Of a stretch of DNA of 64,000 nt, positions 1 to 32,574 are shown in pieces; position 1 is the first letter of the stretch, and each line of letters starts with the position of its first letter. This DNA comes from Klebsormidium nitens (lineage: Eukaryota > Plantae > Klebsormidiophyceae), in the NCBI GenBank assembly GCA_000708835.1, contig DF237153.1, positions 1-64,000 on the forward strand. Direction: 5' to 3'. Both the position numbers and the translations under genes were made by a program. Under the pieces are notes generated by a model that had not been told where the DNA came from, searched no databases, and was given only the letters and a program-made list of their open reading frames with translations.

Positions 1-16
1 TGAGTACAGCTTTTAC

Positions 17-5500: not shown

Positions 5501-5559
5501 ATCTTGGATGCAGCTTACGAGGCTCTTCAGGATCATGGGCAGAATGGCCAGGTTGACTG

Positions 5560-6895
5560 CAAGTCAGAATGTTAGCCGTGGAAGTCTGGAATGCTTATTT
5601 TCATGGAGCAAGTTTTGACTGCCCCCCAGCGCTGATCCGTACAACACTGTTAGGATCAGGGCTGGGGCGGGAGTCAATATTTCTGTCGTGAGAGTCAGGA
5701 ATGCTTATATTCATGGGGCAAGTTTTGACTGGCCCAGCGCTAGGCCTTACAGTACTGTTAGTACTAGGGCCAGGGCGGGAGTCATAATTTCTGACGTGGA
5801 AGTTTGGAATGCTTATACTTTGAAGGGAAGTTTTGACTGGCGGGCGCTGCCGCTCCAAGCATTCTTCAAGCTCGCTGTTAAAACGACTTGGAAGCTCTGG
5901 AAGTCAAAAGTTCTGTTGTGAAAATTTGGAATGCTTATATCACAGGTAAATTTTGACTGCCCCCAGCGCAGCCACTTGCAAAGGCATTTTCAATCAGGGC
6001 TGAGGCGAGAGTCAAAAGTTTTGCTGTGAAAGTCTAAAATGCTTATACTATGAAGGAAAGTTTTGACTGGTGGGCGATTCTACTCCAAGCGTTCTTCAGG
6101 ATCACGGTTTGGATTGGCTTAGCAGAAAATCCTGCCTTGAAACGCTTGAATGCTTAGATTCATGGGGCAAGTTTTGAGTGGCCCCAGCGCTAAGCCTTAC
6201 AGTACCTACTCTTAGATTTAGGGCCAGGGCTGGAGTCAAAAGTTCTGACGTAGAAGTCTGGAATGCTTTTACTTTGAAGGGAAGTTTCGACTGGTGGGCG
6301 CTGCCGCTCCAAGCGTTCTTCGAGCTCGCGGTTGGAATGGATTGGGAGCTCTTGAAGTCAAAAGTTCTGTCGTGAAAATCTGGAATGCTTATATCAACAG
6401 GTAAGATTTTGACTGCCCCAGCGCTGCCTCTCACAACGCATTCAGGATCAGGGCCGGAGTGGGAGTCCAAAGTTCTGTCGTTTGAGTCTGGAATGCTTAT
6501 ACTGTTGATGGAAGTTTTGACTGGTGGGCGCTGCCGCTCCAAGCGTTCTTCAGGATCCCATTCTGGATTGGTATACGAGCTGTGCGAGTCAAAAGTGTTG
6601 CCTTGAAAGGATTGAATGCTTATATTCATGGGGCAAGTTTTGACTGGCCCCAGCGCTAAGCCTTACAGTACTGTTAGTGCCAGGGCCAGGGTGAGAGTCA
6701 AAACTTCTGCCTTGAAAGGTTGGAATGCTTATGCTCACAAGGGAAGTTTTGACAGGTGGGCGCTGCCGCTCCAAGCGCCTGCAGGATCACTGTTGGATTG
6801 GCCTGGGGACATCTGGAAGTCAAAAGTTCTGTCTTGAAAGATTGGAATGCGTATACTAGCAAGGGAAGTTTTGACTGGTCAACTCCACCGGTCTC
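5560..6895 (+). repeat. Tandem array 1 of family-A palindromic box (about 12 units of 108-122 bp, higher-order a/b/a'/b spacers)
   Basis: Recurrent (G/A)AGTCAAAAGTTCTG...GGAATGCTTATA...GTTTTGACTG box. Spacers alternate between type a (cccagcgct...cagggc) and type b (gggcgctgccgctccaagc...). Confidence 0.95.
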
Positions 6896-7000
6896 AAAAT
6901 CCTTCAGCTCATGGGTTTGATGGTTTCAGCCCTGGTGTGATCTTGCTCGCGCTCTTTCGGGTTTCGCACTGCGGGTTTCTCATGCCCCTCGATTGACCCC

Positions 7001-9790
7001 TTGCACGACACGTGCGGCGCCCCCCGCGATGATGCTCTCCTGCCGTCAACCATCAGAGAGCTCGTGGCGAGCGCGGCCAGAGGCTTCCTCACCAACTCCA
7101 AGAGAGGCCACCGCATTTTCCAAAAGGTGGCGGGGACCCTGGGCCAGCGCGCTCAAGAGGAGCTCGGGTCTGCAGGCCTTCTCTGGTCGAAGGCTGCCTG
7201 GGATGGGAGCCTGCATGCCGCGATGGCAGCTCTCCAGTCACTGGCGGGCACTGTAGACGCTGGCTTGCAAGAGGGCTTCGAGAAGGTCTTGACATCGATC
7301 AGGCAGGCCCACATGGAGGGGCTCAAGCAGCGAGAGAGTTCGTCCAGCAGAGTCTGCNNNNNNNNNNNNNNNNNNNNNNNNNNNNNNNNNNNNNNNNNNN
7401 NNNNNNNNNNNNNNNNNNNNNNNNNNNNNNNNNNNNNNNNNNNNNNNNNNNNNNNNNNNNNNNNNNNNNNNNNNNNNNNNNNNNNNNNNNNNNNNNNNNN
7501 NNNNNNNNNNNNNNNNNNNNNNNNNNNNNNNNNNNNNNNNNNNNNNNNNNNNNNNNNNNNNNNNNNNNNNNNNNNNNNNNNNNNNNNNNNNNNNNNNNNN
7601 NNNNNNNNNNNNNNNNNNNNNNNNNNNNNNNNNNNNNNNNNNNNNNNNNNNNNNNNNNNNNNNNNNNNNNNNNNNNNNNNNNNNNNNNNNNNNNNNNNNN
7701 NNNNNNNNNNNNNNNNNNNNNNNNNNNNNNNNNNNNNNNNNNNNNNNNNNNNNNNNNNNNNNNNNNNNNNNNNNNNNNNNNNNNNNNNNNNNNNNNNNNN
7801 NNNNNNNNNNNNNNNNNNNNNNNNNNNNNNNNNNNNNNNNNNNNNNNNNNNNNNNNNNNNNNNNNNNNNNNNNNNNNNNNNNNTTGCAGCTTACAACGAT
7901 ACTTTTCAGCGAAGTGGGCTGTACTATAGTTCAGCGCCCAAGAGCAGACGCCTCACAGGTGAGAGGCTCATTGCTGACGCCCCAGAGGTCCAGCTTTGCG
8001 AGCTCTTGTGCTTTGCCCGAATCAGTTGCCTTCTTCGCCATTGATCCATAACATCCTTCCATCGCAAGCTACGCTCCGCGTCCTGCATCTGTTTCTAGAT
8101 TCCGAGGTGTGGTCTTTTTGCGAGCAGCAACGCTCCTGATCATTGGGGGGATCGAGCCCAATCCCGGCTGGGGGGGCGACGAGGTAAGCGATTATGCGGC
8201 TCAAGGCAGGACAACGCTGGGAAGCGACATCGACAGAGGGTGGCCACTCGTCCCACTGCCGTCACTGGAGGTGAGCGCGCGCACAATCGCCTTGCAGCAT
8301 CATCGAAGAGGATCCTTCCATGATTGCTGAGATCGCTTGCGTGCGAGCTGAGAAGCATGTCCAATCATGCCCAATCATGAGAAGCATGTCGTTTGCATGT
8401 TGGTGAGACGTGCGGCATCCCAGAACAAAAAAGGGCACAGATGAGGGAACCTGAGCTCAATATCATCGCCTTTCTGTGTTGTGCAGGAGGTTTACGGCAG
8501 TCCGCCGTCGCGCCAAGCCCAGAGCATGCATTCACAGTTCGAAGCGTGGAGGAGCCAAGCACGTTTGAGCGAGCAGGTGAGTTAGGAAGGTACATCACAT
8601 CGGACAGTTGCAACGAGATATTACTGATCTTTGCATCCTGACCCCAAACGTCTTCAGACTGGCACTGCTTTCAGCCTGGGAAAGAGATCATTGAAGTCGC
8701 TGAGTGTCCCTTGCATAGCTGTCTAGCGCAAGCCCTTGAGATTGGGCCGAAAATGATGGCAATCTGCATGTTGTAAGCAGCAATTAGGTCTCTTTCTCAA
8801 CTTGACTGTATCTAGTGGGTCACGTTCCAGCACTTTGTGAAAGCTCACGGCCTGGCTGGTTGCGGTCCGTGAAACACGTGTTGAGCGGCGCTAGTCGTCA
8901 CCTTTGCATCAGGTTTGCTTAGAACTGATCAGGAACCTCTCATCCTCTGTCCAGATAAGCGGCGGCAACCAGCGGTCGGCTACGAGTGCGGCCAGTGAGT
9001 CCGGGTCCGAGCTGTCGGATATGGAAGACGAAGGCGAGGACATTGAGGGGGCGGAGTTTGAGAGCGTGGACGAGCCTCAAGACGTGGGAACATCCAGGGA
9101 TCGCGCATTCATCGACGATGAAGACGCAAGCGAAGATGAAGAGAACGAGGTGATTGCGCAAGGCAGGTTTCGTGTTGCCAGAGGATCGAGCTCCGACTCG
9201 GATGTCCCTCTGCTTCTGGCTCGGCGCTTCAAGCCGCAGGCGCCGGGACGGGCGACCAAGGCGCTCCAAACAAGCCGCCGAGCCCGTTCTCCGCCCTCTT
9301 GGTCGAGAGCTTCGGCCGAGGAAGGCAGCCCTTCACAGGGCTTTTCCTCTACGGTGAGCGACGGGGGTTGGGCTGATCAGCAGCTGCCGCCCGCTACTGG
9401 TGGCCGCATCCTGCTGCAGCGCTCCGAGGAAGCCGCAATGGACACGGAGTCCGGGTCGGACGAGCTTCCGGGTTTCCGTAAGCGGCGGGTGCTTGATGGG
9501 GCAGCCCGCTCTCCACAAATCAGGCGGCGCCGTCGGGTGCTGCTCTCATCATCGGAGCCCTCGGGTGAGACCGGCAGCGTCTCGGCAAGGCGGAGCGGTG
9601 CTGCTGGGTCGGAAGAAGAGGTGCAGGAGAGGGGGGCCGATGAGCTCGTGCCCGGCGTCGGCGCCAGCTTCGACGGTTCGCCGGAGCCTGAAGACGACGG
9701 CAGCTTGGACGAGTCAGATTTTGGGGAGGAGTTTGCGACTCTGTGCGTGATCGAGCCGCGCCCGCGGCGAGCGACCATCAGTCGAGTGAG
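7001..9790 (+). CDS. Uncharacterised multi-exon protein with acidic/Ser-Arg low-complexity region (fragmentary, spans N gap)
   Basis: Open coding-like block 7001-7357. Short exons at about 8099-8183 (..GGIEPNPGWGGDE|gtaag) and about 8487-8577 (tgtgcag|EVYGSPP...SEQ|gtgag) join in phase 0 to the long ORF resuming at about 8956 (ISGGNQ...EDEGEDIEG...). No recognisable domain. Confidence 0.35.
7358..7883. other. Assembly gap (N run)
   Basis: Continuous N. Confidence 1.
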
Positions 9791-9877
9791 CACCATTAAT
9801 AGGGTTGTTCGCGCTCTTCGTCTGTCTCGGCTCTTCAAGGCCTCATTCACAGTGAGCAGATGTCTGTATCTGTTTGC

Positions 9878-11690
9878 CGAGTCAAAAGTTGTGCCATTGG
9901 AAGCTGATATGCGTATGGAAAGAGGCAACTTTTGACTGGTCGGCGATATTGTTAAGATACTTTTCAGCGGTTGAGGGGGATGTTCAGTGGTGGTCGGAGT
10001 CAAAATCTGGGGCTTTATGGGACGCAAGTGCTTATTATGAGAAGGATTTTTGCCTGCCAGGCGAAGCCATGTCTGCGAGCTTCTTCGGGGATGGTCCGGT
10101 TTGTTTCGGAGTCAAAACTTGGGGCCTTATGTGATGCGAGTGCTTATTATGAGAGGATTTTTGCCTGCCAGGCGAAGCCATGACTGCGAGGTTCTGCCGG
10201 GGATGGTCGGGTTTGTTTCGGAGTCAAAACTTGGGGCCTCAGGCGATGCTTATTATGAGAGGAATCTTTGACTGCCAGGGGACGACATTATTGCGAGATT
10301 CGGCTTGGGATGGTCGGGATTGATCTGGAGTCAAAAGTCGGGCCTTATGGGGATGCGAGAGCTTATTATTGAGAGGGATTTTGACCGCCATGGTACGCCA
10401 TGACTGCGAGATTCTGCTTGGGGTAGTCGGGATCGATCTGGAGTCAAAAGTCGGGCCTTATGGGGATGCGAGTGCTTAATATTGAGAGGGACTTTTGACC
10501 ACCAGGGGAAGCCATGATTGCGAGATTCTGCTTGGGATGGTCGGGCTTGGTTTGGAGTCAAAAGTCGGGCCTTGTGGGATGCGAGTGCTTATTATGAGAG
10601 GAGTTTTTGACTGCTAGGCGGCGCCAGCAACTTTGGAATGGTCGAGCCGGTTCCGGAGTCAAAGGTTGGGCCTTATGTGATGCGAGAGCTTCTTATTGAG
10701 AGGGACTTTTGACTGCCAGGGGACGCCATGTCTGCGAGATTCTGCCCGGGATGGTCGGGCTTGTTCCGGAGTCAAAGTTGGGGCCTTATGTGATGCGAGT
10801 GCTTATAATAAAAGGGACTTTTTTGACTGCCAGGCGGCGCCAGCAACTTGGAATGGTCGGGCTCGTTCCGGAGTCAAAAGCTGGGCCTTATGTGATGCGA
10901 GTGCTTATTATGAAAGGGGATTTTGACTGCCAGGCGGTGCCATGACTGCGAGGTTCTGCCTGGGATGGTCGGGCTTGTTTGGGAGTCAAAAAGTTGGGGA
11001 GTTAAGTGATGCGAGTGCTTTTAAAAAGGGTAATTTTGACTGCCAGGCAACGCCATGACTGCAAGATTCTGCCCGGGATGGTCGGTCTCGTTCCGGAGTC
11101 AAAAGTTGGGGCTTAATGGGATACGAGTGCTTATTATGAGCGGAATTTCCGACTGCCAGGCGACGCCACGGCTGCGAGGTTTGGACCGGGATGGTCGGTC
11201 TTGTTCCGAAGTCAAAACCTGGGGCTTTATGTGATGCGAGTGCTTATTATGAGCGGGATTTTTTGACTGCCAAGCGGACGCCAGTTCCAGGTTCGAACAG
11301 CTCGACCAGTCAAAACTTCCCTTCATAAGCATTGCAGCTTTCTTCGGCGGAACTTTTGACTCGCCGCCAAGCTCGGCCATACCTTGTCGTTTGTGAAATT
11401 CGGCGACTGACAGCAACGACCATTCAAAACTTCCCCTTAGAGTATAAGCATTGCTGCTTTCCACGGCGGAACTTTTGACTTACAGAGATGGTCGGTCGGG
11501 TTTTAAAGTCAAAGCTTTGGGTTTTATGCGCTTCACGGTGCTTGTCTATAAAAGCCACATTTGACTGCCGGGCGGCGCCATCAACTTCCAGTTTCTGGCA
11601 GGCTTGTTCGAAAGTCAAAAGTAGGGCCCTGTTCACGAAGGGCGTGCTAATTTCAAGAGGAATTTTTGATTGCTGCGCTGCGGCTAACGC
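9878..11690 (+). repeat. Tandem array 2 of family-A palindromic box (about 13 direct units of 100-115 bp, two inverted units at about 11290-11480, two further degenerate units)
   Basis: Consensus GAGTCAAAAGTTGGGGCCTTATGTGATGCGAGTGCTTATTATGAGAGGGATTTTTGACTGCCAGGCGACGCCATGACTGCGAGATTCTGCCCGGGATGGTCGGGCTTGTTCC. Unit starts near 9998, 10108, 10221, 10328, 10441, 10555, 10655, 10770, 10871, 10983, 11096 and 11210. Confidence 0.95.
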
Positions 11691-11716
11691 GTGCGCGCCT
11701 CGATGGATAGCTCTCA

Positions 11717-11971
11717 CTAAGCCCCCCGCCTTCTTGCTGCCTTGCAGGATCCGGCTCCCTTCACCAGCGACCCGCACCCCCCCACCCGACCCCGCTCTGC
11801 TGCTACGGAGGTGGTGAGTCCACTTGACGGACGCTTCTCGAAGGCCACATAAGGCAGCTCCAGGTCGTCTTGATAGCGGCGGTCGTGCACTGCTGCCAAG
11901 GTTGCGCTCTCCTCAGCAGTCAGGGGCCGAGACAGAGCAAAGCGGCCGGTGAACTTGGTGTCGTAGCCCAT
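11717..11971 (-). pseudogene. Truncated tandem duplicate of the 5' end of the 11985-12695 gene
   Basis: MGYDTKFTGRFALSRPLTAEESA is identical in both copies. Nucleotides about 11910-11974 closely match about 12637-12697, then the sequence diverges and stops. Confidence 0.7.
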
Positions 11972-11984
11972 GATTCGATGCCCT

Positions 11985-12695
11985 TCAAGAGTCAAAGCGT
12001 TTCCTTAAGTCTGTGTCCGTTGGTCGTAACTGCGTCGTCTGTGCGCCATTTGTCCCTAAACCCTTCATCCTCTTGCTGTCTTGCTGGAGACGGGCCTTTT
12101 CCACATCGACCCGCATCCTGCCGGCCAGCCTCGCTCCGGAGCGACAGAGGTCGCGCCTACGGTGAGTACAATAATTTCTCCTCGCCGTGTAGTCGAAGAA
12201 CGCCTCGTTTGGGTAGTCGTACGAATCGTCTCCGATGCACAATGCAATCGGTGGGGCCATCTTGACAAAAATCTGGTTGCCGTTTAACGTGATAGACCCC
12301 GTGTCGCCCGAAAGGTTGTCTTCCAAGGTGACCGTCCCGCTCAGTCGTACTCCCCATACTTCAAAGAAGTTGGAAATGAAATACTCGAGCCAGCTGACGT
12401 GGTTGTAGAAGGGGCCCTTCCCGTCCCAAACAAGAGCGCTCTTGTCATGCGAGACGGTCCAACGGCATTTGCATGATGGGAATTCCTTGAAGATGTGCCA
12501 TCCTTCCCCATTGCAGTAGGGGTCGACTCCCTCTCGCAATATCTTGATCGGGCGCTCCTGACCCGGAACCGCAGAGGGTAGCTTCAGACCATCCTCTGGG
12601 CGGTAGTCCTGAACAGCCTTGAGAATTGCGCTCTCCTCAGCGGTCAGAGGGCGTGACAGGGCAAAGCGGCCGGTGAACTTGGTATCGTAGCCCAT
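11985..12695 (-). CDS. Intronless hypothetical protein resembling a phage/bacterial/large-virus uncharacterised family
   Basis: 236-aa ORF with MGYxTxFxGxFxLxxPL N-terminus and CxW...LVWDGKGPFYNHVSWLEYFISNFFEVWGVRLSGTV core. Family resemblance is from recall, not a search. Confidence 0.6.
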   Translation of the reverse strand: MGYDTKFTGRFALSRPLTAEESAILKAVQDYRPEDGLKLPSAVPGQERPIKILREGVDPYCNGEGWHIFKEFPSCKCRWTVSHDKSALVWDGKGPFYNHVSWLEYFISNFFEVWGVRLSGTVTLEDNLSGDTGSITLNGNQIFVKMAPPIALCIGDDSYDYPNEAFFDYTARRNYCTHRRRDLCRSGARLAGRMRVDVEKARLQQDSKRMKGLGTNGAQTTQLRPTDTDLRKRFDS

Positions 12696-13503
12696 GATAT
12701 GTTGTCCTCCGGGGGCCGAAGCGTTCCCCTAAGCCCGTGCGATGCCCTCTCTCACTCGTTCGAGCGCTGTGCAGGAGGCTGTAGCCAGGACGAGGGCCGC
12801 CTCGAGCAGGGGGGACTCCCCAGCGCCCACTGGTTTTAAAGTACCGATCAGAAACCCGTTCGAAACGGTGAGCTACATCACAACTGGGGCGTGGCCACAT
12901 GTGCACTAGTCTGGAGCCGGCTGCGCTTGTGCGACTTTTGAGGGGCGGGAAGCAACAACTTCGATTCGTTTGAACATTGCACTTTGGAATCATGTTCTGA
13001 CTGTTTGGAGTGCCGGCCGTCGGTAGCGCAATCTGCGTAGGTGCGGGTGCTTCCATTCTTTCAGAGTCGGTCCACAGCTCGTAGCTCTTTGCAAAGAATC
13101 AACAATGTGTACAGCAACAATCGGGCTGGGATCACCAGTCGTAATCGATCCCCAAATCTAGGGTTCTCGTAGGCTCGCTTGTCACACTCATGTCATTACA
13201 TGTGCATGCGCAGGCTGGAGGCGATGCTCAGGATGCGCCTGGAGGTCTTCCCCGCCAGGGGGCTCGCCGAGCCTCATCCCGTGGACGGGGCTCCGATCGT
13301 GCAGGTAAGTGTCCATGTTCTATGACCAGTTCACGGAAAAGACTACTGCTCCGGCCGGATGATACTGGAAGCTCTTCCTCAACAATCCTGAAAAACATTG
13401 CTGTCCCGCTGACGAGATCGATCCGGTCAGGTTCTTTTGAAACGAGCAAGCACGCTGGACAAGAATGTGAAGTCTTGGTCCCTCCTCAGTACAGAGTCAA
13501 CAA

Positions 13504-14246: not shown

Positions 14247-17200
14247 ATGGAGATGGAGGAGATTCCAGAGGCAAACACCGTTGGGCAGGACACGACTGAG
14301 CCAGCTTCAAACGAGATTCAGGATTCCGCCGGCAGCCTGCTGGTGAGAACGTGCGCGACCTTGGAACAGCCCGCTGTCTTTTGCCTAAAGCGGCCACACG
14401 GCTTCCTGCTCAAGTCATTCTCTCGATTGCAAACATTGTGATTACAAGAGGCACTCGGCCCCTAATCTCCCTTTTGTGAACAATCACGGTCATTCAGATG
14501 CAAGCACGGTCTGACTACACGGGTCTCTTAGGCACATCTGCGAGGATTCCTTGAGATTGCTCTTGAGTCCAAATCCTCTGAAGAAATCCAAACGAGTCCC
14601 TGGGCTAGCTTCCAATTTGAAATGCATGTGCGGTTCAGTCATGCAGTCTGCTGACTGCTTCTCGAACATTCCACTCTGCAGAGGCACACGACGACCGTCT
14701 ACGGCCAGCAGTGGTTCAAGAGCAAGGAGACTCCGACCGGCCGGGGCCCCAAGGACCTCGCCGTGGCCTGGAAGACCCTCCACGGCCACGGCATTCTCGT
14801 CGCTGCTGACTCCGCGTCAGATTCCGCTGCCAAGATGTTCACCAGCTTCCAGGACGTTCCTGCCCTGCTGGTTTACTGCGCACGCCTCCGGGGCCGGAGC
14901 AAGCACCTGTACGAGTGCCTGCTCGAAGTGACCCCTTCGCTGCTCTACTACGACCTGGACTACTACGTGCCTTCGAACGTGTGCGCGGGGGACTCCGAGG
15001 ACGCGGTCGGGGCGCGGGACGCAGAGTTTGCTGAGCGGAAGCGGCACTTTGAGCGGCTCAGGGACGGGTTTCTGGAGGCGGTTCTGGGGGTGTCGAGAGA
15101 GGCGGTGCGGTTCGAGGAGAGCACTGCGCACGGAGGGGTCCCGGGGGGGTTCAAGTTCAGCGTTCATGGGGTGCTCAAGGGCTTCTACCTGGAGGACAGC
15201 CGAGCGCGGGGCCTGTTTGCAAAGGCATTCGAACAGTTCCTGAAGAACCCGCCCCCGCAGTTGGCGCGCAGCGCCGAGTTCGTCTGGACGGAGGATCAGC
15301 GGGGCCGCCCAAAGCTAATCTGGGACGGCACGGTCTACTCCAAGTTCCAGAACTGGCGCATGCTGCGGTCGAGCAAGAAGGGGAGCGACCGCGTCCTCGA
15401 GCCGAGCGAGGGCAGCTCGGAGCTCATTGTGGACCACCTGGCGGGGCTCTACTCGGCAGCGGCGCTGCAGTGCTGCGCCCGGCTAGACGTGGCGCGCCTC
15501 GAGGCGTACCTCCAGCAGCACGCGCCCACCCTGTCGCGGCCGCGGCGCCCAACGATGCGCGTGAGAGACGCGGGCCTCGCGGAAGATGGCGGGCAGAATC
15601 GGGCGGACCTGGGCGAGGAGGAGCAGCGCGTGCTGGTGGAGTGCTACCAGCAGGAGCACCCCGGCGCTACGCTCGCGCGCGTTCACGTGGTCGGCTCGGG
15701 GGTCTTCACGGTCCACTTCGACGTGCCAGAGCCCACGTGTCTCCTCGCCGGCCGTCCGCACACGTCCCCGGGCAACAACAACACGTACCTGCTCTACCGC
15801 CGAACCCGGCCGGGGGTGGCATTGTACAAGTGCCATTCCGCCACCTGCAGGTGAGCAACCACGGGCAACAGGGACCGCTTCAATCCGATTCCTATCTTCC
15901 AAACAACGATCCATGAAATACGTTTTAGGAGGCCCAAGGCTGGACGATAAGAATCAATCCGAATCGCCCGCGGTTTCTGCTTCTGGAACAGCTTCCGTCA
16001 CTAGCGTCGTGAGGTTCTGCAAGATACTTCAGGGTCGACAGTAGGATTCGTTTGGCACTCTGTAATGCTAGACTCTTGCAGCTGGCGGTGTATCAGTCAG
16101 TCAAACTCTGCCCTCATGATATAAGCGTTGCAGCTTCCAATGTTGAAACTTTTGACTCGCCGATAAGCCCGGCCATACCTCGTTCTTTTCGGTAATTCTG
16201 TGCTTAGCAGCGTGTACAAGTCGAAAGTCCCCTCGTAGTATAAGCTCTGCAGTTCTTTTATGGCGGAACTTTTGACTCGCAGCCAAGCCCAAACCCGGCC
16301 ATCCCTCGTCCTCCGTGAAACCTTGTGAATTACAGCGTCAACCAGTCAGAACTTCCCGTCAGATAATAAGCTCTGCAGCTTCTCACGGCAGGACTTTTTG
16401 ACTCGCAGCTAAGCCCGGCCATACCTCGTCGTTTCTGAAAATTCGTGGGTAACAGCGTCGACCAGTCAAAACCTCCCGTGAGAATATAAGTATTGCAGCT
16501 TTCCAGGTCGGAACTTTTGACTCGCCGCCAAGACCGGCCATCCGTCTGTCTGTCCGTGTGTGCTTAGGAGCTCAGACCAGTCAAAACCTCACGTCAGAAT
16601 ATAAGCATTGCAGATTTCCAGGTTGAAACTTTTGACTCGCTGACAAGCCCGGCCATACCTTGCCGTTCGGGATATTCAGGGACTAACGGCGCGGACCAGT
16701 CAAAACCCCCCGTCAGAGTATAACCATTGCCGCTTTCCCCGGCGGATTTTTTTGACTCACTGCAAAACCCGGCCATCCCTTCTGTTTGTGAATTCCCCTT
16801 CGAGCTAAAGTCTTCGCCCTCTCGTTTTGCAGCGGAGTTGCGCGTGTGCTCCATTTGGAGACAGAGCAAATCACGGGCTGGACGGAGGATTATGTCAAGG
16901 CGGACGGCATGCACCCGTATCCACTCTTCTCCCTCGATTCCCCTGCCAAGAAAACGACCCTCGTGTCAGCCAACAAGGGCATTGGGAAGTCGAAGGAGGG
17001 AAACGACTGGCTGGAGAGACTTCTGCAACGGTTTCCGTGTGCGACCTTCCTCATGGTCGCAGCCAACGTCACGCTCGCTCGGAAGTATGCGGAGGATACA
17101 CGGCGGTGCGGCGTCGCGGCCACGCTGTATCTCGATGTGCTTGGAAAGATCGAGGCGAACAGGGTCGTTGTTTGCGTAAACTCCCTCCCCAGACTGGCTG

Positions 17201-20019
17201 CGAATTTTGACGTGGTCATAATGGACGAGATGGACATGATCCTGTCCAACATGAACTCGGACGTCATGGCCCGGAAGAAGATGGTCTTCCTGGCGCTGGA
17301 AGGGGCGACGCGGCACGCCAAGGTCGTGCTCGGGATGGACGCGAACATCGGCAGCCCGCGGGTGATGCAGTGGCTGCACATGGTGCGGCCAGATGCTGCC
17401 TTGCACACAATCCGCAACCGTGGGGTGTACCCGGGAGCGCGGAAGGCCACGATCAAGTACATCCCTGCGACGGCGCGGTTCCAGAAGGACCCGTACGGCC
17501 CGGCGATTGCCGAGACGTTGGAGTCTCTCGCGAAAGGCGAGCACATCATAGTAAGTGTCTTCTCTCCTCCGACCCATCCTTGCGCAAGACCGAACGAGAC
17601 ATTCTGCCCCGCTCCTCGCTAAAAGAGCCTACGAAGAAGTGGACTCTGTGCTTCTAGATTGCGCTTGGTGAGCGCCTGCTCCACGTCCCCCTTGTTTTTT
17701 CAGATTGACGAGCAAGCCTTCACGCTAGATCTGTTTCGTTTTTCGAAGTGACTTCGTGCAAGCCTTTGCCAAGAAAGACGTCAAGGCCGCCCTACCTTTA
17801 TTGCCAGAATCAAAGTCAGCTGATATGGCGGAATCTGCCAAGTCTGATCTACGCTTTAGAGAAAGGAACATCAGGACAGTCCGCTCTTTCTGACCAAACT
17901 CATTGAAGGATTTCAGTCTGATGACGTGGCAGATTTCTTAAACGGAACCAATGGGCTGCTGCCACGTCAGCATAAGGAATTCTGATTGCTTCTGCACGAA
18001 TCTGATCTTGCTGGGTGGGTTTAAAGACGTTAAGACTGCCCCTCGGAATCTGTCCTGGTGGGCTTAGATGAGCGCTTTTATCTAGTGACGTGGCAGCTTT
18101 TCGAAGTGAAGAGGCCGTCACGTCAGCAGAAATGAGTCTTCGTCAAAGTTAAATGCAAGTCTGAACACAGACGCTTTGTTTGGACCAAGAATCGGGCCAC
18201 CGATGCTAACGCCCGTGGGTGCCCCGTGGTTCCATTCCATTCCGTCCAATTCTGTTGGAACAGACATCTGAATTCGCCGTTTATCTTTTTGCAGGCGCCT
18301 TCGTCCAGCAAGACGTACGTCCTGAAGCTCGAGGAAGCCTTCAAGCAGCGGTTCCCAAGCGACGGCCCGACTGCCAAGTCAGGGAAGTTCTTCTACTCCA
18401 AATCTACGACGAAAGCGGCGAAAGCCGCTCTCGAGCTGGCGGTCACCGACCCCGACACCCACATGACGGCAGACCTGTGCGCCTCCTCCCCCGTGATCGG
18501 CCCCGGCATCTCGCGAGAGCGGCCCCACTTCGACAGGCTCATCGCTTTCGCCTTGAACAGCTTCGAGCGGGGGCCGACCGTCGAGACCTTCCTCCAGCAG
18601 CTCTTCCGCGATCGTACGGTCACCGACTTTACAATCTACGTCAAGGAAGGCGCGGGCCCCCGGTCGCTTCCCTCGACCGTGGAGGACGTTTTCTGCGCGA
18701 TCGAAGACAACGATCGCGAGCTCGCCAAGCTCTTGGGCAGCACCGACCATCTGGATTTCCTGCTGGCCCCCTCCGGAACGCGGCCAGTCTGCAACAGGAA
18801 CTCCCCCGCCTGCGTCCTGTATGCGAACAACGTCCTCACGGTCGCCAACAGCTTCCGCAACTTCCCGGAGCTCCTGCGCGCAGACCTGATCAAGCAGGGG
18901 TTCGTCGTCCACGAGGAGTACCTGGGCAACGAAGCCCCCTCTTTTCAGGTGCGCAGAGTGGGTCCCAAAGACGATGACCAGGACCTCGCTGACGATATTT
19001 GGCGCGCCAGGTATGTGGTCGATGACAAGGCGTATTGCAACCTCCTCGAGAAGGATGAGATCGAGACCCTGGACGAAGTGGAGGTGCGGCAGAGACACAT
19101 CTACGAGTGCATCCGCAACGTGCACAAGGTGGATCCTCGTTGCGTTAACCACAACTACGAGGCGGTGCACTGCGGAAAGGAGCTCGTACCGTATCAGAAT
19201 TACATCAGGTGAGCGAAGAACGATACAGTAATCCAAGCAAGCTGCGGTTAGGTCGATCTGAGATCGTGCTCAGCCCTGTTCTTTGGAGGCTTCCGAACCG
19301 CTTGCGTGATGAATCTCGCTTTGAAGAATCGACGCTGCTTTCGATTGCCTCTTGGATCAGCACGTCATTCTTGGATCAGCTTTGCCGTGCTTTCTCTCTG
19401 CTTTAGAAAGGGGTGTCTTGTTGCTGTCGGCTTTAGATGTACGGGTGCATCCAGATGACCCTGCAAAGCTCCCCTGTACAGGTTCCAAACGACTCCGTTC
19501 CCCGACCTCATTGACGACCTCGCGAGAGCCCTGAAAGAACGCGACATGGAAGGCGTGACAAAGGATTACGTTGCTGACATGGGCGACATGTCGCTTCGAG
19601 TGCCTCCTGCGGTGATCGTTCTGGCGGAATTGATGGGGTGCGGGCCGGAGGATGTGGAGAGGTGCAAAGAGGATGGGTTTCCGGTCGAGGAGGATGCATT
19701 TCAAACGGTCCACGACACGTTGCTCGCGCAAACGCCCAAAGTGCTCAGCTTTATGCACAATTTCTACGGGATTGATCAGACGGCCGAAACTCTAACGGCG
19801 ACAATGAAGCGCAACGCCATCAAGAAGATTCTCCACATAGGCCTCGGGCTCAACCACATTCCCCCGAAGAAGTCGAACGGGAAGTTCGTAGCTGGCTGGC
19901 CCCACATCTTCAAGCCGCTGCTGTGGCAGGAGGTGCGAGAGAAGTACGGCCGACTGGTTGATTACCAGGCGACACAGACGGCGGAGGTTTGCAAGATAAC
20001 GCCCACAGATGCTTTATAA
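14247..20019 (+). CDS. Five-exon fusion: PrimPol-like archaeo-eukaryotic primase + C-H-C-C Zn finger + UL9/origin-binding-protein-type SF2 helicase
   Basis: Predicted exons 14247-14342, 14682-15850, 16833-17550, 18295-19208 and 19482-20019. All introns are GT-AG and keep the frame (phases 0,2,0,2). AEP motifs YYDLDY, FSVHG and WDGTVYSKFQNWRMLRSSK. Zn finger CLLAGRPH...YKCHSATC. Helicase SANKGIGKS (Walker A), VVCVNSLPRL...VVIMDEMD (Walker B), MDAN, HIIAPSSS, SSPVIGPGIS. Exon 1 is the least certain. Confidence 0.85.
16098..16800 (-). repeat. Tandem array 3 of family-A palindromic box (6 boxes, about 117-125 bp period), inside intron 15851-16832
   Basis: Plus-strand units ACCAGTCAAAAC...ATAAG(C/T)ATTGCAGCTTT...AACTTTTGACTCGC...AAGCCCGGCCATACC, i.e. 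the family-A box in reverse orientation. Confidence 0.95.
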
Positions 20020-20865: not shown

Positions 20866-21027
20866 GCTCAACAATTGGTTGGTTTTGGAGCAATTGCGTC
20901 TCCCTAAGTATGTCACTAATGGCCGGGCGTGACCACTTTTGCACGTTCTAGGTCGATTTTGCGTGTGGAAGTCACACTCGACATTCGTTGAATAGCATGC
21001 ACAGCGGAATCTAGCCACGGCCGTTAC

Positions 21028-21501
21028 TTGCCGCTTGAGCGAGGGTTCCGTACGTACTTAGGGAAAGAGATTGGGCTGATGATAGTATCAGATTTTCGGG
21101 CCCGTGCAATGGAAGAGCTTGCAGATGGACGCATCCGATGCCGAGCAGTTGGGGTGACCTTCGAAGGTCGTCGGAACCGGATTCGCATGCTTCGACCTGG
21201 TCAGGAGCTCATACTACGCAAGCATTTGATGGATGGATATAACGCACATGGCATCGGCATCTTCGCTCCTACGGAAGACTCGCCTCTGGGCTTTGTTGGG
21301 AAAGAGTTCAAATACCATAATGTTTTTGGCCCAATTCGGAGAGGGTTAGAGATGCAAGCACGAGTGCACCGCGTTAATTGGGGCCGCTATGGACAGTGTG
21401 GGTTTGAGGTGGAGATTCTTAACGATTCAAGCTCGAGTACAAGCTACAACCCTGCTTTGGACGACACGCTCTGCGAGATCATTAGAAGAGAGCGATCATA
21501 G
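21028..21501 (+). CDS. Stand-alone HIRAN-domain protein (degenerate)
   Basis: RAVGVTFEGRRNRIRMLRPGQELILRKHLMDGYNAHGIGIF...LGFVGKE follows the HIRAN pattern (vaGv.f.gr...l..G..l.L.rep.NpyD.nAi.v...lGyv). Probable ATG near 21109. Confidence 0.65.
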   Translation: MPLERGFRTYLGKEIGLMIVSDFRARAMEELADGRIRCRAVGVTFEGRRNRIRMLRPGQELILRKHLMDGYNAHGIGIFAPTEDSPLGFVGKEFKYHNVFGPIRRGLEMQARVHRVNWGRYGQCGFEVEILNDSSSSTSYNPALDDTLCEIIRRERS

Positions 21502-21582
21502 TTTGAAGGACGATTTGTCATCACCGCGGTAGTGCAACGGTTGCCATCATTTTTCTCTATAGACGATAGTTGAACAGATTGT

Positions 21583-22137
21583 ATGGATGCGATCCTTGGT
21601 TTTCGTCCTCATGCACGCGTCGCAATTCTTGACATGGACAAACAGATCCTTGAAAGTGGTCGGTCGGCAATTGTGAGGGCATATCAAGAATTTGGATCCC
21701 TTGAAACGACGTTGGATGCCATTGCGATGGGCGGCATCCGATGTTTAGCAGATCCGTTTAATTTGCCCCATATATGCAGAGCCCTCGTTCGCTCGTTGAT
21801 TGCGGAGGGTTTCCAATCCTTTTGGGATAGAAGCAATGCAGATTGCCCATACATGGTGAAGGTTAGCTGGAGAGCTGCCCTGAGAAATGCAACTCAATCT
21901 CGGCGACGAGCCCGCAAGTTGCGAGTCGTAACATCCAAGGAGAATGTGCATGATGCTCGAGTGCTTTCTCCCCTCGACCACATACAAACAAGAGCAATAT
22001 CCCCATCCTTCTCATCTCGTCCTCCGAGTGTCATCTGGACGGATGATAACGTGCCTGTGCTGGGCCTGGAGGAAATTGCAAACGTGAAACCGCTTCGAGG
22101 TGCTCTCGACTCTCCCAAATCCGCCCGGTCTGGATAA
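21583..22137 (+). CDS. Hypothetical protein
   Basis: 184-aa ATG-initiated intronless ORF, co-oriented between HIRAN and the recombinase. No recognisable motif. Confidence 0.35.
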   Translation: MDAILGFRPHARVAILDMDKQILESGRSAIVRAYQEFGSLETTLDAIAMGGIRCLADPFNLPHICRALVRSLIAEGFQSFWDRSNADCPYMVKVSWRAALRNATQSRRRARKLRVVTSKENVHDARVLSPLDHIQTRAISPSFSSRPPSVIWTDDNVPVLGLEEIANVKPLRGALDSPKSARSG

Positions 22138-22324
22138 CGGAATATATAAAAAAGCCCACTTTCCTATTTCTGTACACCGCTAGTCACATTATCTGGAGCT
22201 AGTAGCTTTTCGGCCGAAAAGTTACGACCCGTCTGGCTACGAAGCCGGCTTATACAAGCTTTTGTAACCAGAAAATTGACAAAAGCGACTTGGCATGTTG
22301 AATTCGTTCGACGATTTTTGAGAC

Positions 22325-23461
22325 GTGAATAATCACATTATCTGGCGAGATGGGCGTTTGGCGTGTCAGAAATTTTATCTGCATTATCTAGAAAACCTGA
22401 AGATGCAAGTGCCCAGCGGAAGCACGAAACGTGTAACCTCCGTAACCAACGGTGAACGGCTGCTGCGCCAGGTCTTTGATGATGGCGATCGCAACCAAAA
22501 CACGATTGCGCAATACGTGAAGCACGTGATGCGCTTGTTTGAGGGCTTGCACAAACAGAGCGACTTCGGCGATCTGGAATGGATCAAGAGTTCCGACACA
22601 ATCATCAAATATTTTCAAGAGACCTACCCGGTTAAGCTCAGTATGCAAAGCACTGGTATTAATCCGCTTTTAGTCGTGTGCAGGAAAGCATTCCCAAATG
22701 ATAAACGACTCTATGATGCGTACTACGAACGATTCACAGAGGTGCGTAGACTTATGGAAGAAGCACGGCCTCCGCCTCAGCAACTCACCGAGCGTGAAGC
22801 GGCCAATTGGAAGAATCTAGATCAGACTACTGAGCGCCGAGTAGAGCTCCAGCAATACGTGAACCGCAAGATTCTGCACAAACGACCAGAGGAGTTGACC
22901 ATCGAGGACAGGATCATTCTGATCCGCCACCTCATCTTATGCCTCTTCACGTACCAACCAGCACCACTTCGAAATGACTACTCAGAGTGCCCGATCGTCC
23001 GTAATAAGGACATCGGGACCGCTGAGGCGCGCGAGCTCATGTCATCCTCTCGGAATTACGTGGTCGAATTCGAGAAGGGCCAATTTCGTCTCGTTTTAAA
23101 AGACTTTAAAACAGTCAAACACCATGGCGTGACAAGCATCGATATGTCCACGCGGTCCAACAGTGTGATTGCTGAAAGCCTGCAGGTATTTCCACGCAAG
23201 TACCTGTTATCAAGGATGAGATCTCCCGATCAGCCAATGACAAGAAATTATATGACAAAGTTCTGCTCGACCGGTCTCTTCAAGGACGCAGCCGTCGGAA
23301 GTTGCCTTTTGCGGAAAATTTGCGTGTCGAACGCGATGAAAGATGCGCCAAGCTTGCGAGAGAGGGAGGAATTGGCACAGCAGATGCTCCACATGGCGTC
23401 TATTGCTCAAAGAGTCTACGAAAAAAAGTACAACCCGGACGGTTCAAAGATTCAATTTTGA
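22325..23461 (+). CDS. Tyrosine recombinase/integrase of the virophage/Polinton-like-virus type
   Basis: Uninterrupted ORF (likely ATG near 22403). Catalytic pattern PLRND (R), DFKTVKHHG (K), SCLLRK (xxxR, His replaced by Leu), MLHM (H), QRVYEK (Y). Confidence 0.85.
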   Translation: MNNHIIWRDGRLACQKFYLHYLENLKMQVPSGSTKRVTSVTNGERLLRQVFDDGDRNQNTIAQYVKHVMRLFEGLHKQSDFGDLEWIKSSDTIIKYFQETYPVKLSMQSTGINPLLVVCRKAFPNDKRLYDAYYERFTEVRRLMEEARPPPQQLTEREAANWKNLDQTTERRVELQQYVNRKILHKRPEELTIEDRIILIRHLILCLFTYQPAPLRNDYSECPIVRNKDIGTAEARELMSSSRNYVVEFEKGQFRLVLKDFKTVKHHGVTSIDMSTRSNSVIAESLQVFPRKYLLSRMRSPDQPMTRNYMTKFCSTGLFKDAAVGSCLLRKICVSNAMKDAPSLREREELAQQMLHMASIAQRVYEKKYNPDGSKIQF

Positions 23462-23508
23462 CGGATATGCACATTTCTCAACTCGCTCAACGCCTCTGCG
23501 GGATTCTT

Positions 23509-23943
23509 TCATGATACTTCGATGCTCGTGAATGCACCCAGAGGAAGAGTGGATGCTTTGATTCCACTCTCCATGTCCAAAGAGCTAGTTATCTGAGGCA
23601 CCTCAAATCCAGCATCGATCAAACGTCGCGCTGTGGATTTATGGAGCTTTTTCGTTCGGCCATTTATGAATCTGTAATAAGCCTTCCGTAACAAAATTTC
23701 GTCATGATGTCTGTAATAATATGCCCTCATATTTGCGTTGTGCTTTTCTGGGTGAATCTTGGCATATTCTCTGTGTTTTTGACACGCTCGACACGGACAT
23801 GGTACATGCGCTCGAGTCTCCTCAGAGGCATTCAAGTTGCCTGCATCCATTTGTTGGACCATTTTCGAGTCCTGTTGATTGATGAGATTATTGTTTTGTT
23901 CTCCAACCGCACCAAAAATGGAGGTGCGTTTGTTTGACGTCAA
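23509..23943 (-). CDS. Small basic protein with aromatic/basic helix (possible DNA-binding regulator)
   Basis: CPCRAC followed by KHREYAKIHPEKHNANMRAYYYRHHDEILLRKAYYRF. Convergent with the recombinase and divergent from the primase-helicase. Confidence 0.45.
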   Translation of the reverse strand: MTSNKRTSIFGAVGEQNNNLINQQDSKMVQQMDAGNLNASEETRAHVPCPCRACQKHREYAKIHPEKHNANMRAYYYRHHDEILLRKAYYRFINGRTKKLHKSTARRLIDAGFEVPQITSSLDMESGIKASTLPLGAFTSIEVS

Positions 23944-23967
23944 TTTTACCTTGCGCTACACAAGGAC

Positions 23968-26809
23968 ATGATGTCTGCAACAGGCCCAGAGCACGCTAGC
24001 ACCCCAGGACCTCAGACGCTCAAGCTCTTCAAGTGCTCTGGGCTCCAGGGCATCCGAGACGAGATTGAGAAACTAGCCGCTGCTGGCCTTTATGCAATCC
24101 CGATCCGACTCTATTGGAAAGATGGCAAAAAGCAAGCCGATTACCCGCGTCGATGGGCGCATATCAAGGATCCTGACTCATGGCGCCAATCTTCTGAGAG
24201 CCCATTGCAGCAAGTGCAGCCTGGTGCTAACGGAGTCGCAATTCTCACCGAGGTCTCCAATCTAATGGTAATTGATATTGATGTTGCGGGCGATGTCATT
24301 CTCTCTCGGGTATGGAGCTTTGGAACGAGTTAGTTGCCAAACACGGCCAACCAAATACCTTGACAGCAAGGTCCGGAAGGAATGGGCTCCACCTCTACTA
24401 CCGAGCAAATTCACCGGGATTGGTGCAAAAGAAGAACTTTGAGACCATCAAGGTTGATGGCAAGGTCTATGTTGTTGATGGACGTAGTATTGGTGGCCTG
24501 GTGTACGCCCAACCCGCAAGCTACATCAATGGCGAGGGCAAACTCGCAATGTATCAATGGCTGAACGGGCCTCCGAGCTTTGATGCGTGCAAGGAGATGG
24601 ATCCTTGGCTCGTCGAGATCATAAATAATCGCAACGGTCAGCGCACAACGACAAGCGAAGACAAAGACGGGCCACGGAACGAACCATTGGCAGCGTCCAT
24701 CGAAGCATCAGAATCGGAGAGTATCGAAGTCGAGCCCAATCGGCGGCCGGCCACAAGCTCTGAGTCTCCACACGGCAAAGAGCTCTTGCTGGCGGGACTT
24801 GCGGAGATGCTGAGGGAGGCAGGCGATTCGACGAGCACGTACGCGGGTACTTTGCCGCATGGTTTGTACGGAACGTACTACTGCTATCGCACGCACGGGC
24901 CTCGAAGGTGCCTCTTTGGCCACATGCACTCGGGAAGCAACAACTTTAATCTGCTCAAGAGGGGCCGGATCATCTACTATCGCTGTCATGGTGCCGAATG
25001 CAGCCACAAGCCGGCCTAAAAGCTTGGGGTCTTGGACGATCTCAAGGCCGCCTTGCAGGACGCAACGACCGAGCCTCCCGTGGATCCCCACGACGACATG
25101 CAAGTGATTACTCAGTACACGAGAGGGACTCGAGAGGTCCAGGATTTGCTTCTCAAGATCGTTGTTGAGCATGCGGCTCCAAAGGCGTACGCCAACCTAG
25201 GACGCCTCTTTGCGTACATGTACATGATCGAGGGCCGCATTCTGGCGACCACCAACGATGCAGAAAAGAGCCGCGAGTCGCACTTTTTTTTCTGGAATGG
25301 TTCTTCGTGGATCCAAGATACCTGCAATATGGTTACGAGCGTCTTCACAAGTCAGATGGGCTGTTTGCTGGCATGGTACGAGCGACAGCAGGAGAGATAT
25401 TTGGGCACTCTGTACTCGAAGCACCGAGACTTGCAGGGCTACGTGGTGGATGGCAATCTCAAGCATCTCGACATCGAAGAGGTCAACTCCACGGTGCTGA
25501 AGAGAATCAGGATGGCCACGGAAGCGTGCATAAAGGAACGAGACGAGAGCATGCCCAGCTTTGGCAAGATCAACGTGCAGGATATTGTTGACGTCCGAAA
25601 GTGTATGCACTCTGTGGTCAACAAGCTGCACGTCCCCGGATTGCTTGACATGTTCGATCAAGACCGTATGGTGGTGAATGCGCCAAACGGGTTGATCGAT
25701 CTTCAAACAGGGGCGCTTCTACCCCATCATCCTCAAGACCTCTGCAATAACATGACGTGTGGGTATATCCAAGGAGCTTCAACGCGGTCCACTGCGAGAT
25801 TCCGGAAGTTTCTCATGGCCCATGTTCTTCCACCAAATGCAATTGCGTGGTTGCAACTGTTGCTGGGGTACTGTCTCACAGGAGAGATTTCCGAGGAGCT
25901 CTTCATCATCGCAGTCGGTCTGGCGGGGGCCAATGGAAAGGGGGTGCTACAGAGAGCGCTTCGTAGAGCAATGGGGACGTACAATTGCGCTGGAAATAAG
26001 GCCATCTTCATCAAGCCAACGTTCAAAGCCAACGCATCAGCAGCTTCAACCCACCTTATGCAGATTCGGACAAAGCGTTTCGTTACCAACTGTGAAGCTG
26101 ACGGAAGCGAGGAGCTCCATGCGACATTTGTGAAGGAGGCGAGCGGTGGAGACGAGCTCGACGCACGCGAGCTCTTTTGTAAACCGCAGAGCTATGTGCC
26201 TCAATACAAGCTTTGTTTGTTCACAAACTACATGCCCCATTTTCCTGGCGACGATACCGCCCTCCTTCGCGGATTGTGCTCCTGAGCTTCGACTATGTTT
26301 TCAAGAGTCCGGACGAGCTCGACGAGAACAATAAATCGCACAAGCCAATTGATTTGAGCATCAAGCCCTACTTCGAGTCCGACGAAGGCGCGGCAGACCT
26401 ACTTGATTTTCTCGTTCAGGGCGCAGCAATGTATTATGCGAAGAAGAGGCTTGCACCCACCCAGAAAGTACTCTCGCCCGTCCCAGAGGCATTCAAAACA
26501 GCGGCAAAGGAGTTTGCAGATGAGAACGACAAACTCCAGGCGTTTATAGATGATTGTTGCATTACAGAGGGTCCTGATTTGAAAGTCGCCAAGGCTGATT
26601 TCGTCGAGGCCTTCAAAAACTTCCTATATGCAGGTGGGCACGACACAGGCTTGGCTAGAGATGGGCTGACACGAGCAATGCGCGTGAAAGGCTTCTTGCA
26701 AACGCCGCCGGACGGCAATAAGGGGATTATGATCCCGATGCGTGGCAATAGTAAAGTTCGGGGAAGAGGATACTTTGGAATCCGTTTGAAAACCGATGAT
26801 GACATTTAA
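23968..26809 (+). pseudogene. Bifunctional primase-polymerase (Prim-Pol) + Zn finger + D5-like SF3 helicase, disrupted
   Basis: N-terminal NGVAILT...VIDIDV, TARSGRNGLHLYY and VDGRSIGGLVYAQP. Zn finger CLFGHMH...YRCHGAEC. D5-N FFFWNGSSW and NAPNGLIDLQTG. Walker A GLAGANGKG, Walker B FVTNCEAD, motif C LFTNYMP. Lesions: frameshift near 24305, in-frame TAA at 25017-25019, frameshift near 26268. Confidence 0.9.
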
Positions 26810-32378: not shown

Positions 32379-32574
32379 CCTGATTGACAGAGAAACGGGA
32401 GAATCTGACGGTTGAAACACCTGGCAGTTTTCGATCTCCCTAAGTCTAAACACACCCAATTTGATTGCACAGTTGTGAGTAGGATAGCTTCCTCAATCCC
32501 TAAGTATGTTTGACCCATTCAGAGCCTCTTGCAGAAGTCCTCTGCGGCTCCGGTGTCTAGGGTCACGAACAATC

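What the first reader, a model, noticed from the sequence alone, without database searches (positions are those of the whole stretch)
14247..20019. Spliced, apparently intact PrimPol-Zn finger-UL9-like helicase fusion gene
Seen: ORF-track fragments join through four canonical introns into one frame of roughly 1,140 aa with AEP catalytic motifs, a C-H-C-C finger and SF2 motifs. Established: UL9-like origin-binding helicases are known from herpesviruses and some large DNA viruses, not as standard plant genes. Inference: a single-chain initiator-primase-helicase that has acquired introns and host-like codon use, meaning either a domesticated viral replicase or the replicase of an undescribed eukaryotic transposon.
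Basis: partly seen in the sequence, partly recalled or inferred. Interest (0 to 1): 0.82.

Follow-up and report, generated by a model that had tools for sequence, protein, structure and literature searches.

The report
Spliced giant-virus replicase gene family
A green alga (likely Klebsormidium) carries an intact, spliced and transcribed gene for a giant-virus-type primase-helicase with about 20 annotated relatives, which together likely form an undescribed selfish DNA element that would use this enzyme to copy itself.

Summary
Five exons joined at GT-AG introns give 1,144 aa without a stop: a PrimPol-type AEP, a C-H-C-C finger, a UL9-like SF2 helicase and a C-terminal domain, with all catalytic motifs intact. 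Spliced contigs join three of the four introns; a K. subtile transcript reads through the fourth. The fusion is not new: mimivirus R8, ASFV pF1055L, OsHV-1 and mriyaviruses have it. (1) K. nitens has 23 related gene models, about 21 loci on 19 scaffolds, in about seven deep subfamilies that appear to share intron positions. (2) Full-length relatives are ~2,000-aa polyproteins: N-terminal module, StopGo/2A-like motif, linker, replicase. That module lies 5-7 kb upstream here, separated by a 3.5-kb intervening stretch. (3) One relative carries a D5/SF3 helicase instead. (4) Inverted-motif tandem arrays fill the unit's introns. Best reading (0.5): the replicase of an amplifying, virus-derived selfish DNA element. 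No transposase or termini were found, so passive duplication (0.3) and domestication (0.17) stay open.

The parts
3433..4235 (+). 5' transcribed exon of the extended unit (coding status unclear)
   Evidence: contigs with 1 mismatch over 3433-4232; GT-AG joint 4235/4494 in 4 of 4 runs
4494..5489 (+). small upstream exons (4494-4552, from 4778, to about 5489)
   Evidence: joints 4235/4494 and 4552/4778; the later boundaries are my reading of the sequence
5477..6906 (.). array 1 of ~110-120 bp units, each with GTCAAAA..TTTTGAC as an inverted pair
6941..7357 (+). N-terminal module exon (no known family), runs into an N gap at 7358-7883
   Evidence: 63% and 55% identity to N-termini of full-length paralogs P0081 and P0083, E 2e-33 and 8e-28; no Pfam/NCBIfam hit
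7884..8576 (+). exons ending 7958, 8128-8270 and 8487-8576; StopGo/2A-like core GIEPNPGW at 8148-8171
   Evidence: GT-AG joints in 4 of 4 runs; open frame; motif
8955..9785 (+). acidic low-complexity linker exon
   Evidence: joint 8576/8955; 379 aa open from 7886; 50% over 39 aa to P0072 linker, E 0.002
9779..13261 (.). 3.5-kb stretch skipped in a paralog transcript; holds array 2 (9881-11614) and two antisense phage-like ORFs (11717-12004, 11985-12728)
   Evidence: joint 9778/13262 in 1 of 4 runs, in frame; phrog_38666 E 3e-13
12775..13304 (+). 5' exons of this copy's own transcript (12775-12867, non-coding in the replicase frame; 13214-13304 with ATG 13224)
   Evidence: GT-AG joints; in-frame stop in 12775-12867; 1,172 aa from 13224
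   Evidence: joints 13304/14244 and 14342/14682 in one 0-mismatch contig
14682..15850 (+). PrimPol-type AEP primase domain and C-H-C-C zinc finger
   Evidence: motifs; PDB PrimPol E 1e-5 by profile; AF2 pLDDT 79, Foldseek PrimPol E 3e-11, ASFV F1055L E 4e-15
16090..16781 (.). array 3 in intron 2
16833..17550 (+). UL9-like SF2 helicase, first RecA lobe (motifs I-III)
   Evidence: PF02399 E 9e-13
18295..19208 (+). helicase second lobe (motifs IV-VI) and start of the C-terminal domain
   Evidence: phrog_4913 E 6e-8
19482..20019 (+). C-terminal domain with a conserved KRNA(I/V) helix followed by a beta hairpin; stop at 20017-20019
   Evidence: joint 19208/19482 in 4 of 4 runs
20992..26809 (+). neighbouring intronless virus-like cluster (HIRAN-like ORF, tyrosine-recombinase-like ORF 22322-23461, broken Prim-Pol/D5 primase-helicase); membership in the unit not shown
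   Evidence: PF09250, PF08706; PHROG primases; HIRAN and recombinase labels are recalled from motifs, with no library hit

Best explanation
This is an intact, spliced, transcribed gene for a giant-virus-type primase-helicase, and it is likely the replication enzyme of a virus-derived selfish DNA element that has multiplied in the Klebsormidium genome. Shown: the reading frame, the catalytic motifs, the splicing, the homology to upstream module exons, and the many relatives. Inferred mechanism: the full element makes one spliced mRNA for a ~2,000-aa polyprotein. StopGo skipping at the 2A-like motif would release the N-terminal module from the replicase. The C-terminal domain would bind repeated sites in the element, possibly the intronic inverted-motif arrays. 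The SF2 motor would open the duplex, the zinc finger and AEP would prime, and a host polymerase would extend, as no polymerase gene was seen in the window. Copies would spread as DNA with their introns, inserted by an enzyme not identified here or by recombination. In this copy a 3.5-kb stretch separates the module from the replicase, which would be translated alone from ATG 13224 or 14247.
For: (a) 23 K. nitens models, about 21 loci on 19 scaffolds. (b) The AEP tree of 43 rows has about seven supported groups with stems of 0.34-1.1 and a median end branch of 0.061, the pattern of old lineages each with recent copies. (c) Introns appear to predate the amplification. 8 of 11 unspliced-style metagenome ORFs covering the finger stop one residue after its last Cys, as this window's exon ORF does, at 35-46% identity. 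6 ORFs start at the intron-3 acceptor position. (d) 7 of 7 K. nitens models with more than 550 aa before AEP motif I carry a 2A-like octapeptide; 3 fit (D/G/C/N)(V/I)ExNPGP exactly; the loose pattern appears in 18 of 16,000 shuffles. G/C at p12, H at p16 and W at p19 are reported functional variants (PMC12846837). (e) P0072 has the same 2A-like motif, linker and AEP but a D5/SF3 helicase. This is the SF2/SF3 interchange described for mriyavirus replicases. (f) The helicase also matches the plasmid replication family CyRepA1 (E 3e-29, below cut-off). (g) 51 of 58 GTCAAAA/TTTTGAC hits in 64 kb lie in three arrays within this unit. (h) Intact and decayed copies coexist: partial or split models, and a transcribed paralog with D123G.
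Against: No transposase, integrase or capsid gene was found inside the unit, and no terminal inverted repeat or target duplication in the window. No DNA context of any paralog could be fetched, so shared element ends are untested. Some paralog contigs have depths of 1,260-6,145 and listed substitutions give dN/dS near 0.27; both fit a host function as well. K. nitens is already known to hold several diverged giant-virus insertions (PMC5294986), which could supply duplicates passively. The arrays may be a genome-wide minisatellite and do not fold better than shuffles. UL9's RVKNL is absent. The window's motif differs from the canonical 2A core at two positions, and one paralog ends in Q. No activity of any kind was measured.
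Confidence: 0.5

Rival explanations
1. Passenger: a replication gene from an old giant-virus insertion gained introns and was then copied passively, by segmental duplication or as cargo of KDZ-type or tyrosine-recombinase elements; it plays no part in its own spread.
For: It sits beside intronless virus-like genes and a KDZ-like ORF. Multiple diverged NCLDV inserts are published for this alga. Many models are partial. Recombinase-rich giant repeats flanked by Plavaka transposases are known in Amoebidium.
Against: Catalytic motifs are kept in most models across subfamilies about 40% identical. In-frame indels in the linker of paralog transcripts (414 and 117 nt) and the conserved 2A-like motif imply long selection on the protein. 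The neighbours have no contig cover at 20.3-22.9 and 23.6-28.2 kb while this gene is covered and spliced (absence of cover proves little).
Confidence: 0.3
2. Domesticated host family: Klebsormidium uses the enzyme itself, for example for fork restart after desiccation or UV damage, for maintaining repeat arrays or chromosome ends, or against giant viruses.
For: Host-like GC3 (0.69-0.87 against 0.50-0.64 in the intronless viral neighbours), many introns, deep paralog contigs, dN/dS below 1, transcripts in K. subtile.
Against: About seven subfamilies with recent near-copies and many broken members; a StopGo-like motif, which in cells is reported from retrotransposons (search listing); a swapped helicase module; no named homolog outside Klebsormidium at high similarity.
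Confidence: 0.17
3. Chance join or contamination: unrelated ORF fragments, or a free virus contig in the assembly.
For: No contig join across intron 3 is listed for this copy. The runs are only guessed to be RNA.
Against: Open frame in 50 of 20,000 random splice choices; exact-match spliced contigs; host F-box and kinase genes in the same window.
Confidence: 0.03

Closest known systems
NCLDV AEP + UL9-like SF2 primase-helicases (mimivirus R8, ASFV pF1055L, OsHV-1 homolog, mriyavirus SF2_hel; NCVOG0024)
   Same: Same domain order, similar length, intact AEP motifs; both halves find these proteins by fold; described in 10.1101/2024.02.29.582850 and PMC3493329 (passages).
   Different: Chromosomal, spliceosomal introns, about 21 loci, an N-terminal module and 2A-like motif in front, no capsid or polymerase gene seen in the window; only 11-19% identity in the structural alignments.
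[quoted passage not shown]
   Same: Best PDB match by sequence (E 2e-13) and by structure (Z 21.9, 524 residues aligned, rmsd 15.7).
   Different: UL9 has no primase; RVKNL is absent here; origin binding untested.
Eukaryotic PrimPol (CCDC111)
   Same: AEP fold, motifs I-III and a C-H-C-C finger.
   Different: Fused to a helicase; about 26% identity to a sponge PrimPol, which sits on a very long branch. The alga's own PrimPol was not in the tree.
Giant endogenous viral elements of K. nitens and Amoebidium giant repeats
   Same: Virus-derived replication genes in multiple diverged chromosomal copies.
   Different: Those genes are described as mostly intron-poor and silent in Amoebidium; this family is intron-rich and transcribed.
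Polinton-like viruses, Mavericks, Helitrons, yeast Y' elements (recalled, no call tested these)
   Same: Repeated elements that encode their own helicase or primase-helicase; Y' has an SF2 helicase, an intron and internal tandem repeats.
   Different: No capsid, pPolB, HUH or integrase domain was detected in the unit; telomere linkage untested.

Membership tests
NCLDV-type AEP-SF2 (R8/F1055L) primase-helicase | N-terminal AEP of the NCLDV-herpes/PrimPol clade with intact motifs I-III | tested here: met
   D123/D125, H194, D247
NCLDV-type AEP-SF2 (R8/F1055L) primase-helicase | C-H-C-C zinc finger after the AEP | tested here: met
   C385, H392, C416, C421
NCLDV-type AEP-SF2 (R8/F1055L) primase-helicase | C-terminal UL9-like SF2 helicase in the same chain | tested here: met
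   intron 2 join seen in one run
NCLDV-type AEP-SF2 (R8/F1055L) primase-helicase | Phylogenetic nesting among viral members | not tested
   No viral full-length sequences were retrieved for a tree; only fold and profile matches
Herpesvirus UL9 origin-binding protein | RVKNL origin-recognition motif | tested here: not met
   absent; a conserved [KR]RN[AV][IV] helix lies near the C-terminus in 11 of 11 checked relatives (motif from PMC12543377)
Herpesvirus UL9 origin-binding protein | C-terminal DNA-binding domain fold | tested here: inconclusive
   paralog model aligns to UL9 up to residues 741/810 but at rmsd 15.7; the domain was not folded alone
Herpesvirus UL9 origin-binding protein | Sequence-specific binding to an origin | not testable with these tools
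   needs binding assays
StopGo/2A peptide | Core (D/G/C/N)(V/I)ExNPGP or a reported functional variant | tested here: met
   window GIEPNPGW (W19 variant); exact in P0011, P0018, P0083; further changes in P0012 and P0072
StopGo/2A peptide | Ribosomal skipping activity | not testable with these tools
   needs a dual-reporter assay
DNA transposon / Polinton-like element | Transposase or integrase within the unit | tested here: inconclusive
   none detected in the longest models; recombinase-like and KDZ-like ORFs lie 2-8 kb downstream, linkage unknown; 526 N inside the unit
DNA transposon / Polinton-like element | Terminal inverted repeats or target-site duplication | tested here: inconclusive
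   none in the window self-comparison; element ends unknown because no paralog DNA was available
DNA transposon / Polinton-like element | Dispersed multiple copies | tested here: met
   about 21 loci on 19 scaffolds in the K. nitens annotation
Host SF2 helicase families (DEAD-box, RecQ, DinG) | Best match to a cellular SF2 family | tested here: not met
   PF02399 is the only Pfam hit for exon 3; UL9 ranks above all cellular chains

The most novel reading that the evidence does not exclude
A new class of eukaryotic self-replicating DNA element: capsid-less, intron-rich, descended from a giant-virus replication gene, expressing an N-terminal module and an initiator-primase-helicase from one mRNA by natural StopGo recoding in the plant lineage, with interchangeable SF2/SF3 helicase modules and its own intronic inverted-repeat arrays as origins.
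Probability: 0.3. Interest if true: 0.88.

Novelty: new variant of a known kind. Interest (0 to 1): 0.66.

Why it matters
The R8/F1055L-type primase-helicase is a viral enzyme. A spliced, transcribed, amplified family of it in a close algal relative of land plants would show a giant-virus replication gene turning into a chromosomal selfish element or a host gene family. It also offers candidate natural StopGo sites in a streptophyte; PMC12846837 reports no evidence of natural StopGo use by plant viruses. Both points, and the candidate origin arrays, can be tested directly in a culturable alga and in vitro.

Tried and rejected
No whole genome is held, so copy number rests on annotated proteins. 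The one metagenome scan gave 4 distant virus-like loci and no family member. Viral-contig scans found nothing usable for exon 3, the AEP alignment, L004's helicase, the array motif, the recombinase-like ORF, the helicase alignment or the D5 ORF; the prokaryote genome scan was blank. These pattern scans reach close relatives only. The run search listed no holder on record as RNA. Array units fold no better than shuffles (z -0.9 to +0.5, 6 of 6), so a hairpin role is not supported. The second repeat family (32.6-34.9 kb) has no inverted partner left of the unit, so a giant KDZ element enclosing the gene is not supported. A direct in-frame splice from 9785 or 9851 to 13214 or 13259 fails on phase. 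No library named the N-terminal module, the recombinase-like ORF or the KDZ-like ORF. Four look-ups of earlier findings were empty. Literature searches listed no paper describing this family; subscription journals and supplements (for example Figure S5 of PMC5294986) were not seen. The helicase tree is only the quick version. My own off-by-one slips were corrected; a count of 54 in my notebook should read 51.
Full report
Observation. Random nearby GT/AG choices gave an open frame in 50 of 20,000 draws. Contigs of four runs guessed to be RNA join intron 1 (0 mismatches, 1 run), intron 4 (4 runs) and intron 2 (1 run, probably a paralog). Intron 3 has no listed join (44 joints were not shown), but the K. 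subtile transcript product P0001 reads through it. The same contigs extend the transcript upstream through three more introns; an in-frame ATG at 13224 gives 1,172 aa, with an in-frame stop one exon earlier. The organism is taken to be Klebsormidium because the close named homologs are all from K. nitens or K. subtile; this was not tested otherwise.

The protein. Exon 14682-15850 has no Pfam hit but a family profile finds human PrimPol (E 1e-5). The AF2 model (pLDDT 79) matches PrimPol (E 3e-11), poxvirus D5/E5 and herpes primases in the PDB, and pithovirus primases, ASFV F1055L and origin-binding proteins of Bodo saltans virus, marseillevirus and others among viral models. The Atlas puts it with mostly viral clusters (score 0.98, but recognition 2253 is under the tool's threshold). 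The helicase hits PF02399 (E 9e-13), HSV UL9 by sequence (E 2e-13) and by structure (Z 21.9 against 17.5 for the next chain; model of paralog P0002, 38% identical to the window protein), NCLDV origin-binding proteins and CyRepA1 plasmid replication proteins. All catalytic motifs are intact. UL9's RVKNL is absent. This AEP plus UL9-like fusion is published for mimivirus R8, ASFV pF1055L, OsHV-1 and mriyaviruses (10.1101/2024.02.29.582850, passages; PMC3493329, passages), and primases with UL9-related helicases are also noted in prokaryotic elements (PMC5862659, passages). The architecture is therefore known.

The family. Searches returned 22 KFL models plus GAQ92823.1 from K. nitens; merging two apparently split pairs leaves about 21 loci on 19 scaffolds (scaffolds read from locus tags and contig lengths). 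These searches were capped, so this is a lower bound. In a 43-row AEP tree about seven supported groups have long stems and short tips. Unspliced-style ORF calls from metagenomes mark the introns indirectly: 8 of 11 that cover the finger stop one residue after its last Cys, like this window's exon ORF, at 35-46% identity (the others run on 2, 4 and 29 residues), and 6 start at the intron-3 acceptor. This suggests amplification as intron-containing DNA; it is inferred from protein ends, not from DNA. Of 58 distinct listed differences between this copy and paralog contigs, 32 are synonymous and 26 not, about 0.27 after correcting for sites. That uses only 40 of 200 and 20 of 379 listed sites, each classed singly. 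One lower-depth paralog has D123G. Exact-match contigs have depth 2-7 and some paralog contigs 1,260-6,145; contig depth is a poor measure of expression.

The longer unit. The longest models (P0081, 1,945 aa; P0083, 2,047 aa) read N-terminal domain, CxxC..FCxxH motif, 2A-like motif, acidic or proline-rich linker, then the replicase. The window has the N-terminal domain at 7004-7351 (63% and 55%), a gap of N, and a 379-aa open chain of exons from 7886 to 9785 whose introns are joined in 4 of 4 runs, with GIEPNPGW at 8148-8171. All 7 K. nitens models with more than 550 aa before AEP motif I have such an octapeptide; none of the 9 shorter proteins checked does. PMC12846837 (passages and section 9) expands the core to (D/G/C/N)(V/I)ExNPGP, reports about 90% activity for natural H16 and W19 variants, and found no natural use in plant viruses. 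PMC12338488 (passages) found that alanine changes in PGP abolish activity, so activity here is not assured. One paralog contig joins 9778 to 13262 in frame (1 of 4 runs). In this copy 3.5 kb lie between, no obvious splice restores the frame, and the replicase would be made alone. P0072 pairs the same motif, linker and AEP with a D5/SF3 helicase, the interchange reported for mriyaviruses. Three arrays of 110-120 bp units, each with an inverted GTCAAAA..TTTTGAC pair, hold 51 of the window's 58 motif hits and all lie in this unit. Paired boxes around a spacer recall HSV oriS (PMC12543377, passages), but this is an analogy only.

Surroundings. Downstream lie intronless virus-like ORFs: a broken Prim-Pol/D5 gene, and ORFs I read from recalled motifs as HIRAN, tyrosine recombinase and KDZ transposase, none with a library hit. 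Most have no contig cover. K. nitens is known to hold several diverged NCLDV insertions (PMC5294986, passages and section 3.3) whose genes are enriched for methylation (PMC12344493, passages); PMC11244446 (passages) describes intron-poor giant repeats in Amoebidium; PMC5890265 (passages) added nothing on this family. No terminal repeats were found, and no paralog DNA could be fetched.

Verdict. The protein is a new member of the R8/F1055L class by three tested features. The locus is a new variant: a spliced, transcribed, amplified polyprotein family that I did not find described in nine literature searches. I put 0.5 on the replicase of a selfish element, 0.3 on a passively copied relic and 0.17 on a domesticated family. 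Enzyme activity, StopGo, origin binding and mobility are all inferred. Interest 0.66.

Noticed in passing
window 22322-23461 (+): Intronless ORF with R..Y and H-S-x-x-x-Q-x-x-Y-like motifs that I recall from tyrosine recombinases of giant viruses and polinton-like viruses; no library hit; partly covered by a contig that runs on into other sequence at 23376.
   Followed up: partly
window 23900-26809 (+): Broken Prim-Pol plus D5/SF3 primase-helicase (internal stops and a frameshift) with a C-H-C-C finger resembling that of the spliced gene (45% over 38 aa, E 0.03).
   Followed up: partly
window 27486-32492 (-): Intronless GC-rich ORFs, the last with a KDZ (Kyakuja-Dileera-Zisupton) transposase-like signature by recall; no Pfam hit; a separate ORF (29638-30576, +) sits between them on the other strand.
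   Followed up: partly
window 32573-34915: Second repeat family (about 120-230 bp units), all on one strand, next to the KDZ-like cluster and an N gap.
   Followed up: partly
window 11717-12728 (-): Two tandem copies of a phage-like ORF (phrog_38666), antisense and partly inside an intron of the replicase transcript; paralog contigs cover it.
   Followed up: partly
window 1-2502 (+): Multicopy spliced gene with very deep paralog contigs and an internal 300-475 bp duplication; resembles Crinkler-like P-loop/REase-fold proteins by recall only.
   Followed up: no
P0031 (JGI contig, 5 kb): A single called ORF in which a D5-like C-terminal region is followed by the end of the family's AEP and zinc finger, hinting that D5 genes and this family are neighbours elsewhere too.
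   Followed up: no
K. nitens models: Many family models are first or last genes on their scaffolds or flagged partial, which suggests repeat-rich or possibly subtelomeric sites.
   Followed up: no
L004 (7.2 kb metagenome contig): Virus-like contig with an AEP gene and a UL9-like helicase gene as separate, convergent ORFs; the helicase matches the family profile at 97.5% probability.
   Followed up: partly
window 40600-42600 and 55000-57500: Duplicated kinase-containing host gene pair about 14.5 kb apart; F-box/LRR gene at 35683-36944.
   Followed up: no
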